Below, piece by piece: positions 12,686 through 59,000 of a stretch of DNA of 64,000 bases. The DNA is from a bacterium (GTDB lineage Bacteria > Vulcanimicrobiota > JABDET01). Under the pieces are notes generated by a model, which was given only the letters and a program-made list of their open reading frames with translations, was not told where the DNA came from and made no database searches. The position numbers and the translations under genes are program-made. Positions within the stretch are counted from its first letter, which is position 1; each line of letters starts with the position of its first letter. Location: the NCBI GenBank assembly GCA_021800275.1, contig JAJYZB010000002.1, positions 70,997 through 134,996 on the forward strand, given 5' to 3'.

Positions 12686-13873
12686 TTACTTCTGAATCAG
12701 TTCCAGATTTCCCCTTGGAAGAACCCAGTGTGTTCCATCTTTCAAAATCACTTCAGCGACCCTGACCTTAGCTTCGGTTTGAATGGTCTGCGGATCTGAG
12801 GGAAGAGCAGCAATTTTTGCAGTCTGCCCAAAATAAGGATCTCGAATAATGCGAACAGAGCTTCCCTCCTGCAGCATCATGCTCTCATGAGCATCATGCT
12901 CTTTTCCAGAAATCCCTTCATCCCGACTTTTTTCAGAAATCATTCCAACAAAAGTTGTTCCTTTTTCTCCTATCCCTTCTTCAAGATATGAAATGATCAC
13001 TTCAGGACGAATCACTCCCGCCCGTATCTGAGTGGTCCCATTGATTGCAACCTGCCTCCCTTCTGATTCTTTCAATAACCGAAAAGTTTTTTCTGCCATA
13101 GAAATCCTTCCAAATCCCTCGGTTAAAATGATCGTAATTCCCTTGTTTTCCCCTCCAGTTACAGCAACCCCTAAATCATACCCTAGAAAATCTCGAAGAT
13201 CCTGATCCTCAATTCCGCCAATAATGATCCCTTTAATCCCCAATTGTACTGCTTTTTGAAGAGCTTTCAGGGTGATGAGACTCCCCCCAAAAAGAATTTT
13301 TCCTAGAAAACTTGAATCTAAAGCTTTTTCATCCAAAATCTCATCTGGTTTATCAACAGCAGATTGTAAAACTCCCCAGGTCTCCCCTCCAATGCCAAAA
13401 ATCCCGTGAATATATGTTCCATAAGTTTTAATTACAACCCCTTCACCAGGGATAACTTCTTCCACAATTCCACTCACATACGCTTTCATTTCAAGGGGGA
13501 CAGGCTCTTGTCTTAATGTTATTTTTCCAGTAGCTTCTGAAATCGTTTCCACAAAACCTGAGACAGGAGATAAAAATTCAGATTTAAATAATCCAAACAA
13601 TCCGGGATTCTTGGCAATTAACTCCCCTTTACTGACGTGCTCTCCTTCTTTTTTTAAAAGATACTTCCGAACAGCTTTTGGATCAATCCCCAAATGATTT
13701 GCCACATTGACTAATTCCACATTTCCAGGAAGATGAGTTCTGGCAGCAGCAGTATCACTTTCCACTTTTTCTCCCAGTGAAACCAGAACCTCCCCTTTTA
13801 AAGGAAGCCGACGCTCTTTCCTAACAAGGGCGCGTTTAACAACTTTTAACCCAGGTGTATAGGCATTTCCCAT
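12686..13873 (-). CDS. Conserved hypothetical protein with a lipoyl/biotinyl-like hairpin segment
   Basis: 395 aa ORF with ATG start; 'GELIAKNPGLFGLFKSEFLSPVSGFVETI' resembles a barrel-sandwich hybrid; no family recognised. Confidence 0.4.
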   Translation of the reverse strand: MGNAYTPGLKVVKRALVRKERRLPLKGEVLVSLGEKVESDTAAARTHLPGNVELVNVANHLGIDPKAVRKYLLKKEGEHVSKGELIAKNPGLFGLFKSEFLSPVSGFVETISEATGKITLRQEPVPLEMKAYVSGIVEEVIPGEGVVIKTYGTYIHGIFGIGGETWGVLQSAVDKPDEILDEKALDSSFLGKILFGGSLITLKALQKAVQLGIKGIIIGGIEDQDLRDFLGYDLGVAVTGGENKGITIILTEGFGRISMAEKTFRLLKESEGRQVAINGTTQIRAGVIRPEVIISYLEEGIGEKGTTFVGMISEKSRDEGISGKEHDAHESMMLQEGSSVRIIRDPYFGQTAKIAALPSDPQTIQTEAKVRVAEVILKDGTHWVLPRGNLELIQK

Positions 13874-14086: not shown

Positions 14087-14503
14087 TTAGCCCGTTTTAA
14101 GAGTAGGCTCAAGTTCCGGATTAATGGCTTTCATGAGTTGATTGAGCTTTTCGATAGTAGGAATACTTCTACCCTGCTCGTAGCGCGCGTATGCATTCGG
14201 AGATTTTGAATCAAGCCTGTGCGCCATCTCCAGCAAGGTCAGATTGTGCGCTTCCCTCTGCCGTTTCAACATCAGGGCGAATAGTGTCCCTTCCTGGTTG
14301 GCGCCAATTGTAAAGCTCGACCCTGCAGATGGCCGCACGTCCACCTTAAAATCTTTTCTGCCGATCAAGACTTTAATTGCATCGGCAATCATCCAGTACG
14401 CGCTCTTTTTTGATGTGGCTTGTGTCATGATGTCTAGCAGTGGAACTTCGATCAACCAATAGCCGCTTCTTCTGTCTTTCCAAACACGTCCTTCAAATCT
14501 CAT
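14087..14503 (-). CDS. hicB: HicB-family antitoxin with C-terminal XRE-type helix-turn-helix
   Basis: N-terminal 'SGYWLIEVPLLDIMTQATSKKSAYWMIADAIKVLI' HicB fold signature; C-terminal 'LTLLEMAHRLDSKSPNAYARYEQGRSIPTIEKLNQLMKAI' HTH; GGGAGA RBS. Confidence 0.75.
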   Translation of the reverse strand: MRFEGRVWKDRRSGYWLIEVPLLDIMTQATSKKSAYWMIADAIKVLIGRKDFKVDVRPSAGSSFTIGANQEGTLFALMLKRQREAHNLTLLEMAHRLDSKSPNAYARYEQGRSIPTIEKLNQLMKAINPELEPTLKTG

Positions 14504-14714
14504 ATTTTTCTCCCTTCACTCCTGGATGTGCCTGGGCTTTTCGAAGGATTTTTCGGGCCAAGGGCTCGGCAATCTCCCTGTGTCGAGGAACAGGCTCTGT
14601 TTCTTTTCCGTTCGTCCATATTTCGTGATTCCCGCCTTCTCACGACAACCACCATCCGAAGGAGCTCAAGCAGCTTTCCAGGTCACGCTTCTTCACTAAA
14701 ATAATTTTACACAT
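14493..14714 (-). pseudogene. hicA: HicA mRNA-interferase toxin gene interrupted by an in-frame TGA at codon 25
   Basis: Minus-strand translation 'MCKIILVKKRDLESCLSSFGWWLS*EGGNHEIWTNGKETEPVPRHREIAEPLARKILRKAQAHPGVKGEKYEI'; the stop is plus 14640-14642 (tca); the 3' end overlaps the hicB start by 11 nt. Confidence 0.65.
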
Positions 14715-14726
14715 AAATGTGTAAAA
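14705..14726. promoter_or_regulatory. Perfect 10 bp inverted repeat (TTTTACACAT-AA-ATGTGTAAAA) overlapping the hicA start codon; candidate HicB operator
   Basis: Read directly from sequence; the right half-site contains the hicA ATG. Confidence 0.4.
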
Positions 14727-14850
14727 AGTTAAGAGTCCGAATCGAGTCATATATAATCTTACCACGGAGAGCATTATCGCGTCATAAATTTTCCCCTTTA
14801 TGTCAATGGAAGCAGCCAGGTGTATAGGCGTTTACCATTCGTTAACCCAT

Positions 14851-15336
14851 CTAAATCTCTCTAAAAAGTTTCTTCACTCCCACTATAAGAACACCCACTT
14901 TCCTCTCCCATACCTCTACTTCATAAGATTGAAACACGTTTTTTTCTGCAGGAGCTGTCCACTTCTTATCTTTCTCAAAAGGATACTCTGTGTTTCTCTT
15001 AGTCCATTTATCAGATGGAGCAGTTTGTTCCATTTCAAACAAAAACTTTTTCATTTCCTTAGAAAATAAGCGAGAAATACTGCCGCGAAGTTTTGGTGAA
15101 GATTCTGCTGCCCTTAAAATGCCTTGTATAAAACCTTTGAGAGCATGTGATGGCTTTATTTCTCCTACTGCCTTCAAAAAAAGAGCTTTGACAGCTTTTT
15201 CGCTAGCCTGCTGACAGTGAGCAGCTCGATAGCAAAGAGGAGTCAAAGGAAGACTATTTTTAATCTCAGCGACAAACTGATAATCGAATTCAGCCTGTTT
15301 TAAGAAAGCGCTGCTTTTCTCGCTGCGGCTGTTCAT
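14851..15336 (-). CDS. HEPN-domain protein
   Basis: 'CYRAAHCQQASEKAVKALFLKAVGEIKPSHALKGF' matches the HEPN core (QQAxEKAxKA...H). Confidence 0.6.
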   Translation of the reverse strand: MNSRSEKSSAFLKQAEFDYQFVAEIKNSLPLTPLCYRAAHCQQASEKAVKALFLKAVGEIKPSHALKGFIQGILRAAESSPKLRGSISRLFSKEMKKFLFEMEQTAPSDKWTKRNTEYPFEKDKKWTAPAEKNVFQSYEVEVWERKVGVLIVGVKKLFREI

Positions 15337-15718
15337 CTTTATAAAGTCTAGAAATTAAATTTTTACACTCAGGATCTTGATATAAAATTTCAAACTGATC
15401 GCTTCTAATTTCCCTGATGATACTCCACTTTTCTTCCAGTGAACGATCAAAATCTTGCTTTGAGAGTAAAGAGAGTTTAAGCAGACCATGAAGAACTATA
15501 AAATCACTGGAGGAACCAAATGAAACATGATAAATTTCTTTTTCATTTGCGACGTTTGGAAACTGATCAAGCACTTCAAGCAAATAAACATTCTTTTTAT
15601 CATGAATTTTGTACCAGACAGCAGCAAGAAGGGGGCTGTCATCCAATCTTTTATGTCTCCTTATTAATTTCTTTAAATGCGTTTTTTGAAAATTATAAAA
15701 CGCGTTGTCATCTTGCAT
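15290..15718 (-). CDS. Hypothetical protein immediately upstream of and overlapping the HEPN gene (possible cognate partner)
   Basis: 142 aa, ATG start 21 nt after the upstream gene's stop; 47 nt overlap with the HEPN ORF; 'VSFGSSSDFIVL' only loosely resembles a nucleotidyltransferase motif. Confidence 0.35.
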   Translation of the reverse strand: MQDDNAFYNFQKTHLKKLIRRHKRLDDSPLLAAVWYKIHDKKNVYLLEVLDQFPNVANEKEIYHVSFGSSSDFIVLHGLLKLSLLSKQDFDRSLEEKWSIIREIRSDQFEILYQDPECKNLISRLYKDEQPQREKQRFLKTG

Positions 15719-15739: not shown

Positions 15740-17545
15740 TCAATTCGCTCCAGCATCAGGGTAAACCTTTAACACACGATTCCACTCATTCAATTTTTCA
15801 ATTCTGTCAGATTTATTTTTAGGAAGAGAAAAAGGGCGTCCTCTCCCATCTAAAATAATCCCCACAGCCCCTCCCTTTACTTCAGTTTCAAAGGCTTCCC
15901 CTTTTCCTTTTCCGCAGTCTATCCCAGAGGCTGGCTGCAGAAAAACTTTTGCAGTCTCCCCTATTCCTAAAGGAATACACTGCAGGGTTCTCCTGTTTAA
16001 TTCAAGTTCTTCAATTTTTCCATTCTTAAACTGAATTCGAATTTTAGCCAGAGGTTTCCCCTCTTTCACTTCTCCAACAGGGGAGATGCAGGTTCCAAGC
16101 CAGATCAAGCAGTCTTTCTCAAAAACCTGTTCTGCTGCTTCAGGATGAACCTGACTTAAAACTCCTAATTGAGGCATCATGAAAATACTGTCCACAGTTA
16201 AAAAAGTGACTCCTTCAGGGAGATAGGCATCTATCATCATTAAAGCTGCTTGAGAGCGCCTGGGGGCATGACTTAAAACTCCGCCGCTGCCGATCAGCAT
16301 ATCCAGTTCCATCATTTTAATCAGAGTTTCTCCAGACTCGGTTTGAGCAAATGCATCCGAAATATTTCTCTCCTGCTGCACCCCTTTTAATCCAACTGCT
16401 AATAATTTATGCTGCTCAAATGAGAGCCTTAAAGCCTCTCTACAGACTGCCTGCTCTACAATCAATTCTTCCAGCAGCTGAGGGATTGTGGTCGGACGAA
16501 TCATTTTGTTTTTAATCTTATTTCGCAGCTCTTTTTCATTTAAATCAAAAGGTACCCACTGCAGAATCTTTTCAAGACCTGACTCTTTAAACACATTGGA
16601 TATCGAATAACTCATTCCTAAATTCGCGCTGACTGTGCGATTGTAAACATGATGAAAAACCGAAAAAACATCTGTAGTTGCCCCTCCAATATCAGCTCCC
16701 AGCACATTCATTTTATGTTTTTCAGCAATTTTCTGCATCAAAAGTCCAACAGCAGCAGGAGTTGGCATAATAGGGACATCAGTCCATTCCATCAGATTTT
16801 TATAACCAGGGGCATGAGCCATCACATGATTTAAAAAAAGCGCCTGAATGCTCTGACGAGCAGGAGCTAAATTTTCTGTTTTATCTGTAGGTCTTAAATT
16901 GTCAGTAATTTGAAGAGCAGTTTTATGATCCAGAATCTGTTTTACACTTTCTCTTGCCTCTATGTTTCCTGCATAAATCACAGGCAGCTCATAGCCGGAT
17001 CCGAGTCTTGGCTTAGGATCCGCTGCAGAGATCAATTGTGCAGCTTCCACCACATGAGAAACAGTCCCTCCATCCATTCCTCCTGATAAAAGAATCATAT
17101 CCGGTCTTAGAGATCGAATTCTTTCAATTCTCTGGTGAGGAACTCTGCCATCATTGGCAGCTGTCACATCCATCACAATAGCTCCAGCCCCTAAGGCTGC
17201 TCGAGCAGCTGATTCAGCAGAAATCTCTTTCACAACTCCTGATACCAGCATCTGCAGCCCACCTCCAGCGCTGGAGGTGGATACATAGAGATCCACCCCC
17301 TCATTTCCTGTTTGAGGTTTGATGATTTTCTCGTTTTTTAAAAGAGGTCTGCCAGCTAATTCTTCTACTTCAGTGATCGCGTTAATAACTCCACGAGTCA
17401 CATCTTCCACAGGAGCTTCTACTGTTGTCGGAGCTTCTCCGCGAGCCACTAAACGGTACTCTTCCCCTTTTTTGGCGATTAAAATCGCTTTAGTGGTAGT
17501 GGAGCCGCAGTCTGTGGCAAGGATGCTGCAGATTTCTGGTTTCAA
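15740..17545 (-). CDS. ASKHA-fold ATPase-like protein of the GlmL/MutL (glutamate-mutase accessory) family, function unknown
   Basis: 601 aa; N-terminal 'ILATDCGSTTTKAILI', 'ILLSGGMDGG' and 'LGADIGGATTDVFSV' phosphate-binding-like motifs; family assignment from memory. Confidence 0.45.
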   Translation of the reverse strand: MKPEICSILATDCGSTTTKAILIAKKGEEYRLVARGEAPTTVEAPVEDVTRGVINAITEVEELAGRPLLKNEKIIKPQTGNEGVDLYVSTSSAGGGLQMLVSGVVKEISAESAARAALGAGAIVMDVTAANDGRVPHQRIERIRSLRPDMILLSGGMDGGTVSHVVEAAQLISAADPKPRLGSGYELPVIYAGNIEARESVKQILDHKTALQITDNLRPTDKTENLAPARQSIQALFLNHVMAHAPGYKNLMEWTDVPIMPTPAAVGLLMQKIAEKHKMNVLGADIGGATTDVFSVFHHVYNRTVSANLGMSYSISNVFKESGLEKILQWVPFDLNEKELRNKIKNKMIRPTTIPQLLEELIVEQAVCREALRLSFEQHKLLAVGLKGVQQERNISDAFAQTESGETLIKMMELDMLIGSGGVLSHAPRRSQAALMMIDAYLPEGVTFLTVDSIFMMPQLGVLSQVHPEAAEQVFEKDCLIWLGTCISPVGEVKEGKPLAKIRIQFKNGKIEELELNRRTLQCIPLGIGETAKVFLQPASGIDCGKGKGEAFETEVKGGAVGIILDGRGRPFSLPKNKSDRIEKLNEWNRVLKVYPDAGAN

Positions 17546-17619: not shown

Positions 17620-18270
17620 CTAATTTTCTAAAATTAAAATTCCTTCTCGAATTGCATATTTGATCAGTTCTGTTCGATTGTGCAGATTCAATTTTTCCAT
17701 GATATGATATCTGTGGGTCTGGACAGTTTTTACAGAAACAAACAATTGATCCGCAATCTCCTGATTTGATTTTCCATCCGCTAAAAGCTTTAAAACTTCT
17801 AATTCACGAGGGCTTAACGTTCGCTGCATAGAAGCTAATGTTTCCCCTGATGCGCACCCTTTTAAAAGAGTTCGTGTTAATGAAGGAGAAAAGTAAAGAT
17901 CCCCCTCATAAGCTGTAAAAATAGCTGAAATCAGCTCCTCTCGATTCGTTCCTTTTAAAATATATCCTGAACTCCCTGCTTGAACAGCTGAAAAAAAATA
18001 GTATTCTGACTCATATTGAGTCAGAATTAAAATCTTAATCTCTGGATAAAGTTTTTTAATGGTTTGAGTGGCTTTTAATCCATTCAAAATAGGCATCCCA
18101 ATATCCATTAAAATAACATCTGGCTTCAATCTTCCCGCCAGCTCCACTGCTTCTTCTCCATGGGAAGCTTTTCCAATGACTGAAATTTCAGGTTCCCGTG
18201 ACAGCAGACTTTCAAGCCCTTCCCTTAAAATCGTATGATCATCAGCTATCAGCACTTTAATCATGGACAA
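17620..18270 (-). CDS. Two-component response regulator, NarL/LuxR family
   Basis: REC domain ('VLIADDH...DVILMDIGMP') plus LuxR HTH ('LSPRELEVLKLLADGKSNQEIADQLFVSVKTVQTH'). Confidence 0.85.
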   Translation of the reverse strand: MSMIKVLIADDHTILREGLESLLSREPEISVIGKASHGEEAVELAGRLKPDVILMDIGMPILNGLKATQTIKKLYPEIKILILTQYESEYYFFSAVQAGSSGYILKGTNREELISAIFTAYEGDLYFSPSLTRTLLKGCASGETLASMQRTLSPRELEVLKLLADGKSNQEIADQLFVSVKTVQTHRYHIMEKLNLHNRTELIKYAIREGILILEN

Positions 18271-56090: not shown

Positions 56091-59000
56091 TTACCCCCTC
56101 TCTGCCAGAATCACTTTGATCTGTTTAGCAACAGTACTTTGATTCCCGGCTCCATTGAATGCGCGAACTTGAATTTGCTTGATGTTTGAAACAGGGATAC
56201 CTAAGAAATTAAAATAAAACTTTTCTTTTTTTGAATCAAAAAGCCCATTTTCAGGGACCGCTTGAAACCAGGCTCCACCTTTCATTCGAATTTCAACGTT
56301 CCTAACATAACTTCCCAAATCCTCTGCTTTTCCCTCTACATGAAGAAATCCATTCTGCACATCTACTTTCGTCACAGAAATCTGAGGGATGGTGGAATCA
56401 AACGTTAAATTTTTAATCACTTTCTTCTCTATTATGACCTGTGTAGGAAGATTAGAAGGGGCATTAGAAATAGCAAGTTTCAAATTTAACGTCCCATTTT
56501 GGTGTATAAAATTCAATGGGATTATAAAAGGAACTGCTCCTTTTATAGGAGTCGAAAAAAGATTGGAATAAACTTTTTTCTCCTTTCCATTTCTCTGAGT
56601 CCAGATTTGAAGAAGGAGAGTATTCCCATCAGAATCCTGCAGAGTTCCACGCAGCATTGATTTAAAGTCAATCACATCTCCTGATTTGGGCAGCAAGAGG
56701 TTAACAACAGGGGGAACACTTTCAGGTTTCCAAAAAATCTGTACTCCACTTAGAAGAGGACTCTTTCCTCCAGAGGCTTTAGCAAGAGATATCCTGAACT
56801 GCAGATATCTTCCATTTCCTACAATCTTTCCTCCTGAAGAAGGATAGGGGGGTGACCATGAACTCCAAGAAGAATTAACGATAGGAGTGCTGCCAGTCCT
56901 TGTTCTGACCACAATATCAGAACCTTTGGGTGTTTTCCCATACCATATGAGTCTTCCCCACAGCGAATTAATCCCAGAGTTCAGGACCTGAGACAAAAAT
57001 ACTCCATGATTAAACTCTTCATCCGAAAAATGGAAGAGTCGAGAAGAGATTCCCGAAACAACAAAATCATCCCCCTTCCCGCTCCCTTTCAATCCAATTT
57101 TTAAAGAACTGTCCAGTGAAAGCGCTCCATTCCATAAAAGAGAAACAGCTCCGTTATGGCGGATAGAATAAAGCGCCGCTGGAATTCCAGTTCCCGCCAA
57201 CAAAGTTCCGCGCTTTATCCCTAGCCAGGTAACATCCTGTGAAGGCAGAGTGGCTAAAAGACGCAGAACACCATCAGGTTTAAGCTTATAAACCATTCCA
57301 TTTCCTGAAACACCAATGAATAAATCCCCTGCTGAATTTTCGACCAAAGAAAGAACTGCCTGGGCATTTAAATCAGCTGCAGTTTGAACTTTCCCTTTTC
57401 GGCTAATCCGTAGCAAAAGCCCGTTGTTTGCTGTGCCTGCGTAAACGCCATGAGCATCCGGACAAATGACAGTGATGTGTGACTCCGCTGTTCTAGCAAA
57501 AAGAATGGGAGGATGCTCAGGATCCAGGCGATTTATCGTATAAAGGGCGCCTTCAGGATTCCCTGCGGAAAAATAAACGGTATTACCATAAGGAATAATA
57601 TCCCAAATATATTTTTGAGGAATCTGATAATCATGAATGATTTTCCCATGAGGACTAAGCCAGTAAAGACGTCCATCCATAGTTCCAGCTAACAGATCTC
57701 CGTTTGGTAAAGAAGCCAGACTTAAAATTGCAATACTTCTAGAGTCAAAAAATAAAACTTTCTTTTTTTTAGTAATTTTATAAATTTTTCCAGGGTTCGC
57801 AGTTCCAACATAGGCAGCTTCATTAAACCAGGCAAGTGAAAAAAGATTGTTTTGTTTAAAATACGCTAAAGTCCTTAAATCAGGAGAAATTAAAAGATTC
57901 CCATCTGGTGAGACGGCAAGATGTTTCAGTATTCCATTCTGCCAGCTCTGCATCCGATCAAAAGAAAGTGTCATCACATTGCTCGGCTGCTGCAAGTTCA
58001 CCATGGGAAGAGAAGGTAATGGGTTAGCAATTCCTTTCTTCTCTCCCTGGGTTGAAATTCCAGATAATTTCTTCTTGACCGTTTGCTCAGATCCAGTTTT
58101 ATTAGATAAATCAGCCTCTGCAGGCAAATCACTTGACAGAAATCGAAATCCATTCTGAGATGTCCCAGATAAAATGGGATGGGGCTGAACAGGAAGAATA
58201 TGAATCTGAGGCTGCTTCAGCTTGGGCTGAAAGCTTCCCTCAACCATTACGTGTTTAATTATATTCCCCAAGATGACATATGGCATTCGATAGACTTCTT
58301 TCAAAGTATCGGGATGTATAACTAAATTTTCAGAACCTGCTGTTTTTAAAAGAGCGGCAAAAGGGGAGGGAAAATTCGAATACGATTTTCCTTCCCAATT
58401 AATGGCCCCTCTAGGCAGCCCAAGGCGAACTATCAAAGAATTAAAAGGAGGCGATTTTTGAATCTGATGAATAATCTCTCTAATATTTAAAGGAGATGCC
58501 TCTGGAATATTCATGTTCCTTTTCAGCAGATCATTGGCTGTTCCCCCAGCCACTCCAACCTGAATCATTCCTTGAACATCAGACGGAATTTTAATTCTCA
58601 ATTTTTTTTCTACCACTTTCTGGTCATACGGTTTCAGCCAAACTCTAACTCCTAAAAATCTGCCTGGTCTAACTTCTTCTCTATCTAAAACCACTTTCTG
58701 CAGAGTTGCTTCCCTGATCCCTGACTTAACATTGACTCGAACATTCACTTTCAATAAATGAACTTTTTTAAAATTATTTTCCAGTACTTTTTCAATTGGG
58801 GCTAGAACGTCTAAGGTCGTAATGGCTGAAATGCTCGCTTGAGAAAAAAGAAGATTTTTCTTTCGAATTGGAGGATATCCTTGAAATTGCACCGTGTAAG
58901 CAAGTGATGCTGTTGCTCCTCCTAATAATTTTGTAACAGCAGGAATCGCCTGACTCACTGCCAGAGTCGCAAGTCTTGGGGTCAAAACAGAAGATCGGAT

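What the first reader, a model, noticed from the sequence alone, without database searches (positions are those of the whole stretch)
14705..14726. Perfect 22 bp palindrome overlapping the hicA start codon
TTTTACACAT-AA-ATGTGTAAAA is a perfect 10 bp inverted repeat with a 2 bp spacer, and the hicA ATG lies inside the right half-site. HicB here has an XRE-type HTH, so this is a plausible autoregulatory operator. If so, HicB may still repress the locus despite the damaged toxin.
Basis: partly seen in the sequence, partly recalled or inferred. Interest (0 to 1): 0.45.

Follow-up and report, generated by a model that had tools for sequence, protein, structure and literature searches.

The report
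Conserved HicB operator at hicAB promoter
The palindrome is real and is very probably the DNA site where the HicB antitoxin shuts off its own promoter, because the same site sits at the same place in front of about 120 related hicAB loci from many phyla; this is an ordinary kind of toxin-antitoxin self-control, here next to a toxin gene killed by a stop codon.

Summary
The palindrome TTTTACACAT-AA-ATGTGTAAAA is at 14705-14726 as described. Perfect inverted repeats with arms of 10 bp or more are rare in the window: 4 sites against about 0.6 expected.

The locus is on the minus strand. hicB (14503..14087) is intact and has a C-terminal XRE helix-turn-helix. hicA (14696..14493) has an in-frame TGA at codon 19, where the closest relative has CGA.

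The palindrome core, TACAC-N6-GTGTA, recurs at a fixed place upstream of hicA or hicB. It is found in 119 of 141 non-redundant homologous loci at 9/10 or better, against about 1% of shuffled controls, and the loci come from many phyla. The core lies between a TTGACA-like -35 and a -10 that begins in the right half-site. It is also kept in loci that have lost hicA. This supports the reading of a HicB autorepression operator. No binding was tested.

One correction: the true hicA start is the GTG 8 nt downstream of the palindrome, not the ATG inside it. That ATG is operator sequence.

Promoter spacing puts the transcription start at the start codon, which suggests a leaderless transcript (inferred).

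About a quarter of family members have a dead or missing hicA but keep the operator and hicB.

Verdict: a new member of a known kind, of modest interest.

The parts
14705..14726 (.). Inverted repeat with 10-bp arms and a 2-bp spacer, TTTTACACAT-AA-ATGTGTAAAA; the predicted HicB operator
   Evidence: Sequence read; rarity shown; conservation of its core in homologous loci shown
14708..14723 (.). Family-conserved 16-bp operator core TACAC-N6-GTGTA (minus strand: TACACATTTATGTGTA). Half-site centres are 11 bp apart, about one helical turn
   Evidence: Single occurrence in the window. Column counts over 127 loci: C3, A4, C5, G12, T13, G14 are at least 125/127. The central A8 (113/127) and T9 (119/127) were not used to select the loci
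14727..14732 (-). Predicted -35 hexamer TTAACT (family consensus TTGACA)
   Evidence: Promoter scan. A -35 with at least 4/6 matches at a 16-18 nt spacing is present in 101/127 loci, and a perfect TTGACA in 47
14704..14709 (-). Predicted -10 hexamer TAAAAT. Its first two bases are the last two of the operator's right half-site
   Evidence: Promoter scan; TAnnnT at this position in 113/127 homologous loci
14493..14696 (-). hicA pseudogene: GTG start at 14696-14694, 67 codons, premature in-frame TGA at codon 19 (14642-14640) upstream of the GNHEIW histidine motif. It overlaps hicB by 11 nt
   Evidence: Translation. With the stop read as Arg it matches Pfam HicA_toxin at E=1.3e-9. Residue 1 of the homologues aligns to the GTG. 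L005 has CGA at that codon. The sequence is identical in 4 other metagenome contigs
14510..14516 (-). Shine-Dalgarno-like AAGGGAG 6 nt upstream of the hicB ATG, so hicB can be translated independently of hicA
   Evidence: Read directly from the sequence
14087..14503 (-). hicB: 138-aa antitoxin with an N-terminal partial RNase H-like HicB fold and a C-terminal XRE HTH; the predicted repressor that binds the palindrome
   Evidence: Pfam HTH_3. AlphaFold model with pLDDT 91. Best full-length Foldseek matches are E. coli HicB 6u0i and 6hpb_B, and the N-domain matches 2yzt. It keeps all family-invariant residues. dN/dS is 0.21 against L005

Best explanation
The palindrome is the operator of the hicAB promoter. 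A dimer of the HicB antitoxin, joined through its C-terminal XRE helix-turn-helix domains, binds the two half-sites TACAC and GTGTA. Their centres are 11 bp apart, about one turn of the helix. The site fills the spacer between the -35 (TTAACT) and the -10 (TAAAAT), and its right half-site overlaps the first two bases of the -10. Bound HicB should therefore exclude RNA polymerase and repress its own operon. The -10 ends 7 nt before the GTG start of hicA, so the transcript should begin at or within a base or two of the start codon. hicA then has no Shine-Dalgarno sequence (leaderless or nearly so), while hicB has its own strong one. This favours antitoxin over toxin, much as the HicB-repressed P2 promoter of E. 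coli does. In this genome hicA is dead (Arg19 CGA changed to TGA). What remains is a self-repressing orphan antitoxin gene with its operator intact. Shown here: the sequence, its rarity, its family-wide positional conservation, the domain architecture of HicB and the nonsense mutation. Inferred: HicB binding, repression, the transcription start, and the leaderless nature of the transcript.
For: The palindrome and its rarity are shown. The promoter-like site on the minus strand, TTAACT-17-TAAAAT, brackets the palindrome. TACAC-N6-GTGTA scores 10/10 in 92 and at least 9/10 in 119 of 141 non-redundant homologous loci. Shuffled upstream regions reach 9/10 in 27 of 2820 cases, and downstream control regions in 0 of 119. 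ACAC-N6-GTGT occurs 63 times in 331 kb of loci: 52 just upstream of hicA, 9 just upstream of hicB where hicA is missing, and 2 elsewhere. The geometry is constant: TTGACA, 2-3 nt, TACAC-N6-GTG, TAnnnT, about 6 nt, ATG or GTG. The start codon lies 10 nt after the motif in 44 of 94 intact loci and 7-11 nt after it in 64. The loci come from Acidobacteriota, Aminicenantes, Desulfobacterales, Latescibacterota, Melainabacteria, Planctomycetota, Nitrospinota, Omnitrophota and other groups. This argues for a regulator that travels with the cassette. The recognition helix S-x-N-A-Y-A-R-Y-E-Q-G is nearly invariant. HicB has the architecture of E. coli HicB. Published work shows that HicB proteins bind palindromic operators overlapping the -10 and autorepress (Y. 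pestis BS2, B. pseudomallei, E. coli hicO; PMC11594946, PMC10865869). It also shows that the E. coli autoregulated promoter gives a transcript truncated at the hicA ribosome-binding site, which yields HicB only (PMC7167474).
Against: No binding or expression data exist for this subfamily. The promoter and transcription start are consensus predictions, and the host's sigma-factor preferences are unknown. The window's -35 matches TTGACA at only 4 of 6 positions. The central dinucleotide of the window's site (TT on the minus strand) differs at one position from the family's conserved AT. A GTG start is a poor initiator on leaderless mRNA in E. coli. The closest genome relative (L005) has lost the promoter and operator altogether, so hicB can persist without them. 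The 127-locus column counts were taken from loci chosen for at least 8/10 matches, which inflates the conservation of the ten specified positions; it does not affect the central AT or the promoter elements.
Confidence: 0.85

Rival explanations
1. The conserved palindrome is bound by a host-encoded global regulator and not by HicB, for example a stress or nutrient regulator that controls the TA cassette.
For: TA promoters can carry sites for host factors; CRP-Sxy acts at E. coli hicAB P1 (PMC7167474, PMC11594946). Nothing here tests directly which protein binds.
Against: The motif travels with hicB through more than ten phyla and appears almost nowhere else in 331 kb of flanking DNA: 2 of 63 hits. 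No other copy exists in the 64-kb window. It stays with hicB when hicA is deleted. The only DNA-binding domain in the cassette has an invariant recognition helix.
Confidence: 0.05
2. The palindrome acts at the RNA level, as a 5' hairpin in the hicAB mRNA that controls translation or stability, or that forms the end of an upstream transcript.
For: As RNA it can form a 9-bp A/U-rich stem with a 4-nt loop; the 61-nt segment folds at -11.4 kcal/mol, z=-1.75. No terminator separates the upstream HEPN gene from hicA on the minus strand, so read-through transcripts would contain it.
Against: The fold is not significantly better than shuffles: 11 of 200 fold as well. The half-site sequence itself is conserved (C3, A4, C5 and G12, T13, G14 at 125/127 or more), and the central unpaired AT is conserved too, whereas an RNA stem would be expected to covary. 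The element lies between conserved -35 and -10 boxes, so it is upstream of the predicted transcript. There is no T-run or GC-rich stem as in a terminator.
Confidence: 0.04
3. It is a chance A/T-rich palindrome in an A/T-rich intergenic region and has no function.
For: The window is 41% G+C and the spacer is A/T-rich. Single half-sites with one mismatch occur at chance frequency.
Against: Only 0.6 such repeats are expected per window. The core is conserved in about 120 independent loci whose coding sequences are saturated at synonymous sites.
Confidence: 0.01
4. The site is a HicB operator, but in this genome the locus is a decaying remnant: hicB is no longer expressed or needed, and the operator is conserved only because the toxin died recently.
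For: The hicA remnant still shows dN/dS of 0.16 against L005, so the nonsense mutation is recent. L005 shows that further decay, including loss of the promoter, does happen.
Against: hicB keeps every family-invariant residue. Many lineages keep operator, promoter and hicB long after hicA has been deleted outright (L006, L016, L022, L024, L031, L033, L034, L044, L062, L091, L165). This suggests that orphan hicB is maintained.
Confidence: 0.05

Closest known systems
E. coli K-12 hicAB P2 promoter with operator hicO, and HicB with a C-terminal HTH (class 3 hicAB; PDB 6hpb, 6u0i)
   Same: The gene order is hicA then hicB. HicB has a partial RNase H-like N-domain plus an XRE HTH, and it is the top full-length Foldseek match. 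There is an inverted-repeat operator at the autoregulated promoter. hicA starts with GTG. The autoregulated transcript lacks a hicA ribosome-binding site, so antitoxin is favoured (PMC7167474, PMC10865869).
   Different: HicB sequence identity is only about 14%, and phmmer finds no PDB relative. The E. coli inverted repeat upstream of hicA is GTAAACA-N4-TGTTTAC, which is a different sequence with different spacing. It lies upstream of the apparent -10, whereas here the operator spans the spacer and overlaps the -10. No second, upstream P1-type promoter with a CRP-S site was identified here. hicA and hicB overlap by 11 nt here, against a 45-nt gap in E. coli.
Yersinia pestis HicB3 operators BS1/BS2 and the Burkholderia pseudomallei HicB operator
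   Same: The antitoxin alone represses through a palindromic site that overlaps the -10 of the hicA promoter (PMC11594946).
   Different: Those HicB proteins use ribbon-helix-helix domains and act as tetramers. Y. pestis has two 15-bp sites; here there is a single 16-22 bp site and an HTH domain.
Reverse-order type II TA systems whose HTH antitoxin binds a palindrome, such as MqsRA and HigBA
   Same: The toxin gene comes first, and an XRE/HTH antitoxin dimer binds a palindrome in the promoter (PMC7167474).
   Different: The toxin and antitoxin folds differ. These systems serve only as a mechanistic analogy.

Membership tests
HicAB type II toxin-antitoxin, class 3 (hicA then hicB; HicB with C-terminal HTH) | A HicA toxin gene (dsRBD-like fold with a catalytic His) lies immediately upstream of hicB | tested here: met
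   With codon 19 read as Arg, the ORF matches Pfam HicA_toxin PF07927 at E=1.3e-9, 38.4 bits against a cut-off of 27. It overlaps hicB by 11 nt. In this window the gene is a pseudogene with a TGA at codon 19.
HicAB type II toxin-antitoxin, class 3 (hicA then hicB; HicB with C-terminal HTH) | HicB has an N-terminal partial RNase H-like fold (beta-beta-beta-alpha-beta) | tested here: met
   The AlphaFold model has pLDDT 91 with elements E3-9, E16-20, E25-29, H32-47, E54-58, E63-68. Foldseek matches: E. coli HicB 6u0i_A at E=8e-4, 6hpb_B at E=7.5e-3, and the N-domain to 2yzt with TM 0.70 and rmsd 2.3. No Pfam HicB model hit by sequence.
HicAB type II toxin-antitoxin, class 3 (hicA then hicB; HicB with C-terminal HTH) | HicB has a C-terminal XRE-type helix-turn-helix DNA-binding domain | tested here: met
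   Pfam HTH_3 at E=7e-10 over residues 79-128. The structure matches XRE-type regulators: C.Esp1396I, ClgR, DdrO.
HicAB type II toxin-antitoxin, class 3 (hicA then hicB; HicB with C-terminal HTH) | HicA is toxic (an RNase) and HicB neutralises it | not testable with these tools
   This needs expression and rescue assays. The window's own hicA is truncated before the catalytic His.
Antitoxin autorepression operator (such as E. coli hicO, Y. pestis BS2) | An inverted repeat overlaps core promoter elements of the TA operon | tested here: met
   The palindrome at 14705-14726 lies between the predicted -35 (14732-14727) and overlaps the -10 (14709-14704). The same geometry holds in the 127 homologous loci that carry the motif. 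The promoter elements themselves are predictions.
Antitoxin autorepression operator (such as E. coli hicO, Y. pestis BS2) | The site is conserved together with the cognate antitoxin gene | tested here: met
   119 of 141 loci score at least 9/10, against about 1% of shuffles. The site is retained upstream of hicB in loci without hicA.
Antitoxin autorepression operator (such as E. coli hicO, Y. pestis BS2) | The antitoxin binds the site and represses transcription; excess toxin relieves repression | not testable with these tools
   This needs EMSA or footprinting and reporter fusions.
Leaderless mRNA | The transcription start coincides with the start codon and there is no Shine-Dalgarno sequence | tested here: inconclusive
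   Only spacing supports it. The -10 ends 6 nt before the ATG or GTG in the modal family arrangement and 7 nt before it in the window. No 5'-end data are available. Fifteen of 94 intact loci have a start codon 20-23 nt after the motif and so have a short leader.

The most novel reading that the evidence does not exclude
This HicB-HTH family carries a self-contained, host-independent expression module that is conserved across more than ten phyla. In one stretch of about 45 bp, a TTGACA -35, a TACAC-N6-GTGTA operator and a -10 are fused, and the stretch starts transcription exactly at the hicA start codon. The toxin is then made only by inefficient leaderless initiation, while the antitoxin has a strong Shine-Dalgarno sequence. 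In roughly a quarter of natural loci, including this one, the toxin has been inactivated while operator and hicB are kept. This would suggest that orphan, self-repressed HicB is selected in its own right, for example as immunity against incoming hicA-bearing mobile elements.
Probability: 0.3. Interest if true: 0.5.

Novelty: new member of a known kind. Interest (0 to 1): 0.35.

Why it matters
HicB operators have been defined experimentally for only a few systems, and the reviews note that each characterised HicB recognises a different site. This work supplies a precise operator, TACAC-N6-GTGTA with a conserved central AT. It is supported by comparison across about 120 loci of a large, uncharacterised, environmentally widespread HicB-HTH subfamily. 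The promoter geometry predicts a leaderless hicA, and that prediction can be tested. For annotation, the work fixes the hicA start at the GTG, marks hicA as a pseudogene, and shows that the antitoxin with its operator can outlive the toxin. This bears on how TA loci decay and on counts of orphan antitoxins in metagenomes. It does not change any established concept.

Tried and rejected
(1) I searched for other copies of the half-site TTTTACACAT and of the core in the window. Only the palindrome itself matches exactly, and 1-mismatch half-sites occur at chance frequency. There is no regulon within these 64 kb.

(2) I considered whether TGA is recoded or read through. I rejected this because TGA ends 16 of 33 long ORFs in the window. 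Premature stops in homologous hicA genes are a mix of TGA, TAG and TAA. L005 has CGA at the codon in question.

(3) I considered the ATG in the palindrome as the hicA start and rejected it.

(4) A sequence search of the PDB with HicB found only generic HTH proteins at E above 0.006. NCBIfam gave only sub-threshold RstR and MqsA HTH matches. A fold search was needed to link the protein to E. coli HicB.

(5) I looked for covariation between recognition-helix residues and operator variants. The helix is nearly invariant, so there is no informative covariation. Left half-site variants (G/A/C-ACAC, TCCAC) occur with the same helix. The right half-site is more constrained, probably because it doubles as the start of the -10.

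(6) The RNA hairpin reading is not better than shuffles.

(7) A literature search for the motif together with HicB found no paper whose title or abstract concerns a HicB operator; the TACAC hits were not opened. The primary E. coli paper (Turnbull and Gerdes 2017) is not in the library, so its findings are cited through reviews.

(8) I did not identify the window's organism. The closest genome hits are unclassified MAGs.

Full report
**Observation**

Bases 14705-14726 read TTTTACACATAAATGTGTAAAA. This is two perfectly complementary 10-bp arms around an AA spacer. The window (41% G+C) holds four distinct perfect inverted repeats with arms of at least 10 bp and spacers of at most 6 bp. Dinucleotide-preserving shuffles give a mean of 0.6. 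The half-site has no other exact copy in the window, and 1-mismatch copies occur at chance frequency.

**Anatomy of the locus**

The locus is on the minus strand.

- **hicB** runs 14503..14087 and encodes 138 aa with a C-terminal Pfam HTH_3 domain (E=7e-10).
- **HicB fold.** An AlphaFold model built on 39 homologues is confident (pLDDT 91). Its best full-length matches among solved structures are E. coli HicB (6u0i, 6hpb_B). The N-domain matches the partial RNase H-like protein 2yzt, and the C-domain matches XRE regulators. Sequence searches of the PDB and NCBIfam do not find this link. The protein is therefore a divergent class 3 HicB in the sense of PMC10865869.
- **hicA** lies directly upstream in one frame: VKKRDLESCLSSFGWWLS*EGGNHEIWTNGKETEPVPRHREIAEPLARKILRKAQAHPGVKGEKYEI. 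With the stop read as Arg it matches Pfam HicA_toxin above threshold.
- **The premature stop** is TGA at 14642-14640. TGA is an ordinary stop in this genome, ending 16 of 33 long ORFs. The closest genome relative, L005, has CGA (Arg) at that codon. Four other metagenome contigs carry the identical sequence, TGA included. The catalytic His region lies after the stop, so the toxin is dead.
- **hicB translation.** hicB has its own AAGGGAG Shine-Dalgarno sequence 6 nt before its ATG.

**Start codon**

There is an in-frame ATG at 14714-14712, but three lines of evidence point to the GTG at 14696-14694, 8 nt past the palindrome.

- Residue 1 of about 100 homologous HicA proteins aligns to that GTG.
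- In L006, which shares this promoter almost base for base, the palindrome has no ATG, and hicA (there an 11-codon remnant) begins at the same GTG AAG AAG CGT GAC CTG GAA.
- In L087 the ATG in the palindrome is followed by an in-frame stop before the GTG.

The ATG is therefore part of the operator consensus (CAyrTATGTG) and not a start codon.

**Comparative test**

I collected 160 homologous loci from one scan of species-representative genomes and one of metagenomes. After removing duplicates and loci with too little upstream DNA, 141 remained.

| Set | TACAC-N6-GTGTA at 10/10 | at 9/10 or better |
|---|---|---|
| 400 nt upstream of hicB, 141 loci | 92 | 119 |
| Shuffled upstream regions, 2820 | 1 | 27 |
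| Downstream control regions, 119 | 0 | 0 |

In 331 kb of genome loci, ACAC-N6-GTGT occurs 63 times. Of these, 52 lie just before hicA, 9 lie just before hicB where hicA is missing, and 2 lie elsewhere.

Aligned on the motif, the family consensus is TTGACA, 2-3 nt, TACAC-rT-AT-Ay-GTG-TAnanT, about 6 nt, then ATG or GTG. Over the 127 loci with the motif at 8/10 or better:

- A -35 with at least 4/6 matches lies 16-18 nt from the -10 in 101 loci.
- TAnnnT is present at the -10 position in 113 loci.
- The central AT, which played no part in choosing the loci, is A in 113 and T in 119.

The right half-site (GTGTA) is more uniform than the left. Its TA is also the start of the -10, which would explain this.

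The loci come from many phyla. Coding sequences are saturated at synonymous sites even among the closer relatives. The conservation therefore reflects constraint and not recent common descent. The HicB recognition helix S-x-N-A-Y-A-R-Y-E-Q-G is almost invariant, which fits an invariant CAC/GTG core.

**Mechanism**

The operator fills the -35/-10 spacer and overlaps the -10. The window's own promoter-like site is TTAACT-17-TAAAAT on the minus strand. A HicB dimer bound to half-sites 11 bp apart would block RNA polymerase.

Published HicB systems behave the same way. Y. pestis HicB3 binds BS2 over the -10, B. pseudomallei HicB binds a palindrome over the -10, and E. coli HicB binds hicO at P2 (PMC11594946, PMC10865869). 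The E. coli repeat I read upstream of hicA, GTAAACA-N4-TGTTTAC, is unrelated in sequence. That is expected at 14% protein identity.

The spacing also predicts the transcription start. The -10 ends 6 nt before the start codon in the modal family arrangement: 44 of 94 intact loci have the start 10 nt after the motif, and 64 have it 7-11 nt after. In the window the distance from the -10 to the GTG is 7 nt. Transcription should therefore begin at or next to the start codon, which leaves hicA without a Shine-Dalgarno sequence.

This is an inference from spacing only. It parallels E. coli, where the autoregulated promoter yields a transcript truncated at the hicA ribosome-binding site and so makes only HicB (PMC7167474).

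**Does it still work without the toxin?**

- The window's HicB retains every family-invariant residue.
- hicB shows dN/dS of 0.21 against L005.
- The hicA remnant shows 0.16 over the same interval, so the nonsense mutation is recent.
- Toxin loss is common in the family. Of 127 loci with the operator, 94 were classed as having intact hicA. A further 30 were classed as truncated, disrupted or absent, although 4 of these have a full-length hicA followed by a longer gap before hicB. In 3 loci the operator sits directly before hicB.
- The lesions include premature TGA, TAG and TAA codons, lost start codons (ATA, ACG), frameshifts in A-runs, and deletions.
- L018 has a stop at the same Arg codon as the window.
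- Operator, promoter and hicB persist in many of these loci.
- In E. coli HicB alone is sufficient for repression (PMC11594946).

A counter-example is L005, where hicA is 5'-truncated and the promoter and operator are gone.

**Rivals**

- **A host regulator binds the site.** This is unlikely, because the site travels with hicB across phyla and is absent elsewhere.
- **An RNA hairpin.** This is unlikely. The fold is no better than shuffles. The sequence is conserved rather than only the pairing, and so is the central unpaired AT. The element also lies upstream of the predicted start.
- **Chance.** The comparative data exclude it.

**Verdict**

The operator interpretation is well supported by comparison but is untested biochemically. 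It is a new, well-defined member of a known kind of element, of modest interest. The predicted leaderless geometry and the frequent survival of operator plus antitoxin after toxin death are the most interesting by-products.

Noticed in passing
window 14851-15336 (-) and 15290-15718 (-): A HEPN-domain protein (161 aa, PF05168) overlaps by 47 nt an upstream 142-aa ORF that has no Pfam or NCBIfam hit. This may be a second toxin-antitoxin-like pair immediately upstream of hicAB on the same strand. Both cassettes sit between a MutL-type gene (15740-17545) and a 395-aa gene (12686-13873).
   Followed up: partly
window 17259-17280, 18003-18027, 56523-56547: Three other perfect inverted repeats with arms of at least 10 bp: CCACCTCCAGCGCTGGAGGTGG (inside the MutL-like ORF), ATTCTGACTCATATTGAGTCAGAAT (inside ORF 17620-18270), and TATAAAAGGAACTGCTCCTTTTATA.
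   Followed up: no
loci L018, L035, L058, L067, L079, L082, L093, L094, L066, L076, L095, L113, L015, L043, L073 (hicA regions): Many hicA genes of this family in MAGs and metagenomes carry premature stops (TGA, TAG, TAA), lost start codons (ATA, ACG, TAA) or frameshifts in A-runs, while the operator and hicB stay intact. L018 has a stop at the same conserved Arg codon as the window.
   Followed up: partly
L006, L016, L022, L024, L031, L033, L034, L044, L062, L087, L091, L144, L146, L165: hicA is partly or wholly deleted, yet the TTGACA / TACAC-N6-GTGTA / -10 module remains directly in front of hicB. These are orphan, presumably self-repressed antitoxin genes.
   Followed up: partly
L005 1650-2010: In the closest genome relative (85% HicB identity), hicA lacks its first 9 codons and the promoter and operator are absent. 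This is an independent and different route of toxin decay. The same MAG holds a second, hicA-less hicB paralogue (L045, 46% identity) without the motif.
   Followed up: partly
window 14729-14757 (+): A plus-strand promoter-like site, TTAAGA-17-TATAAT (10/12 matches), abuts the palindrome. It points away from hicA and is antisense to the HEPN gene. It could be a divergent promoter sharing the operator, or a chance match in A/T-rich DNA.
   Followed up: no
L085 4237-4254 (E. coli K-12 hicA upstream): The only inverted repeat of at least 7 bp in the 190 bp upstream of E. coli hicA is GTAAACA-N4-TGTTTAC. It lies about 33 nt before the GTG start and just upstream of a TATACT -10-like hexamer, so it is presumably hicO.
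   Followed up: partly
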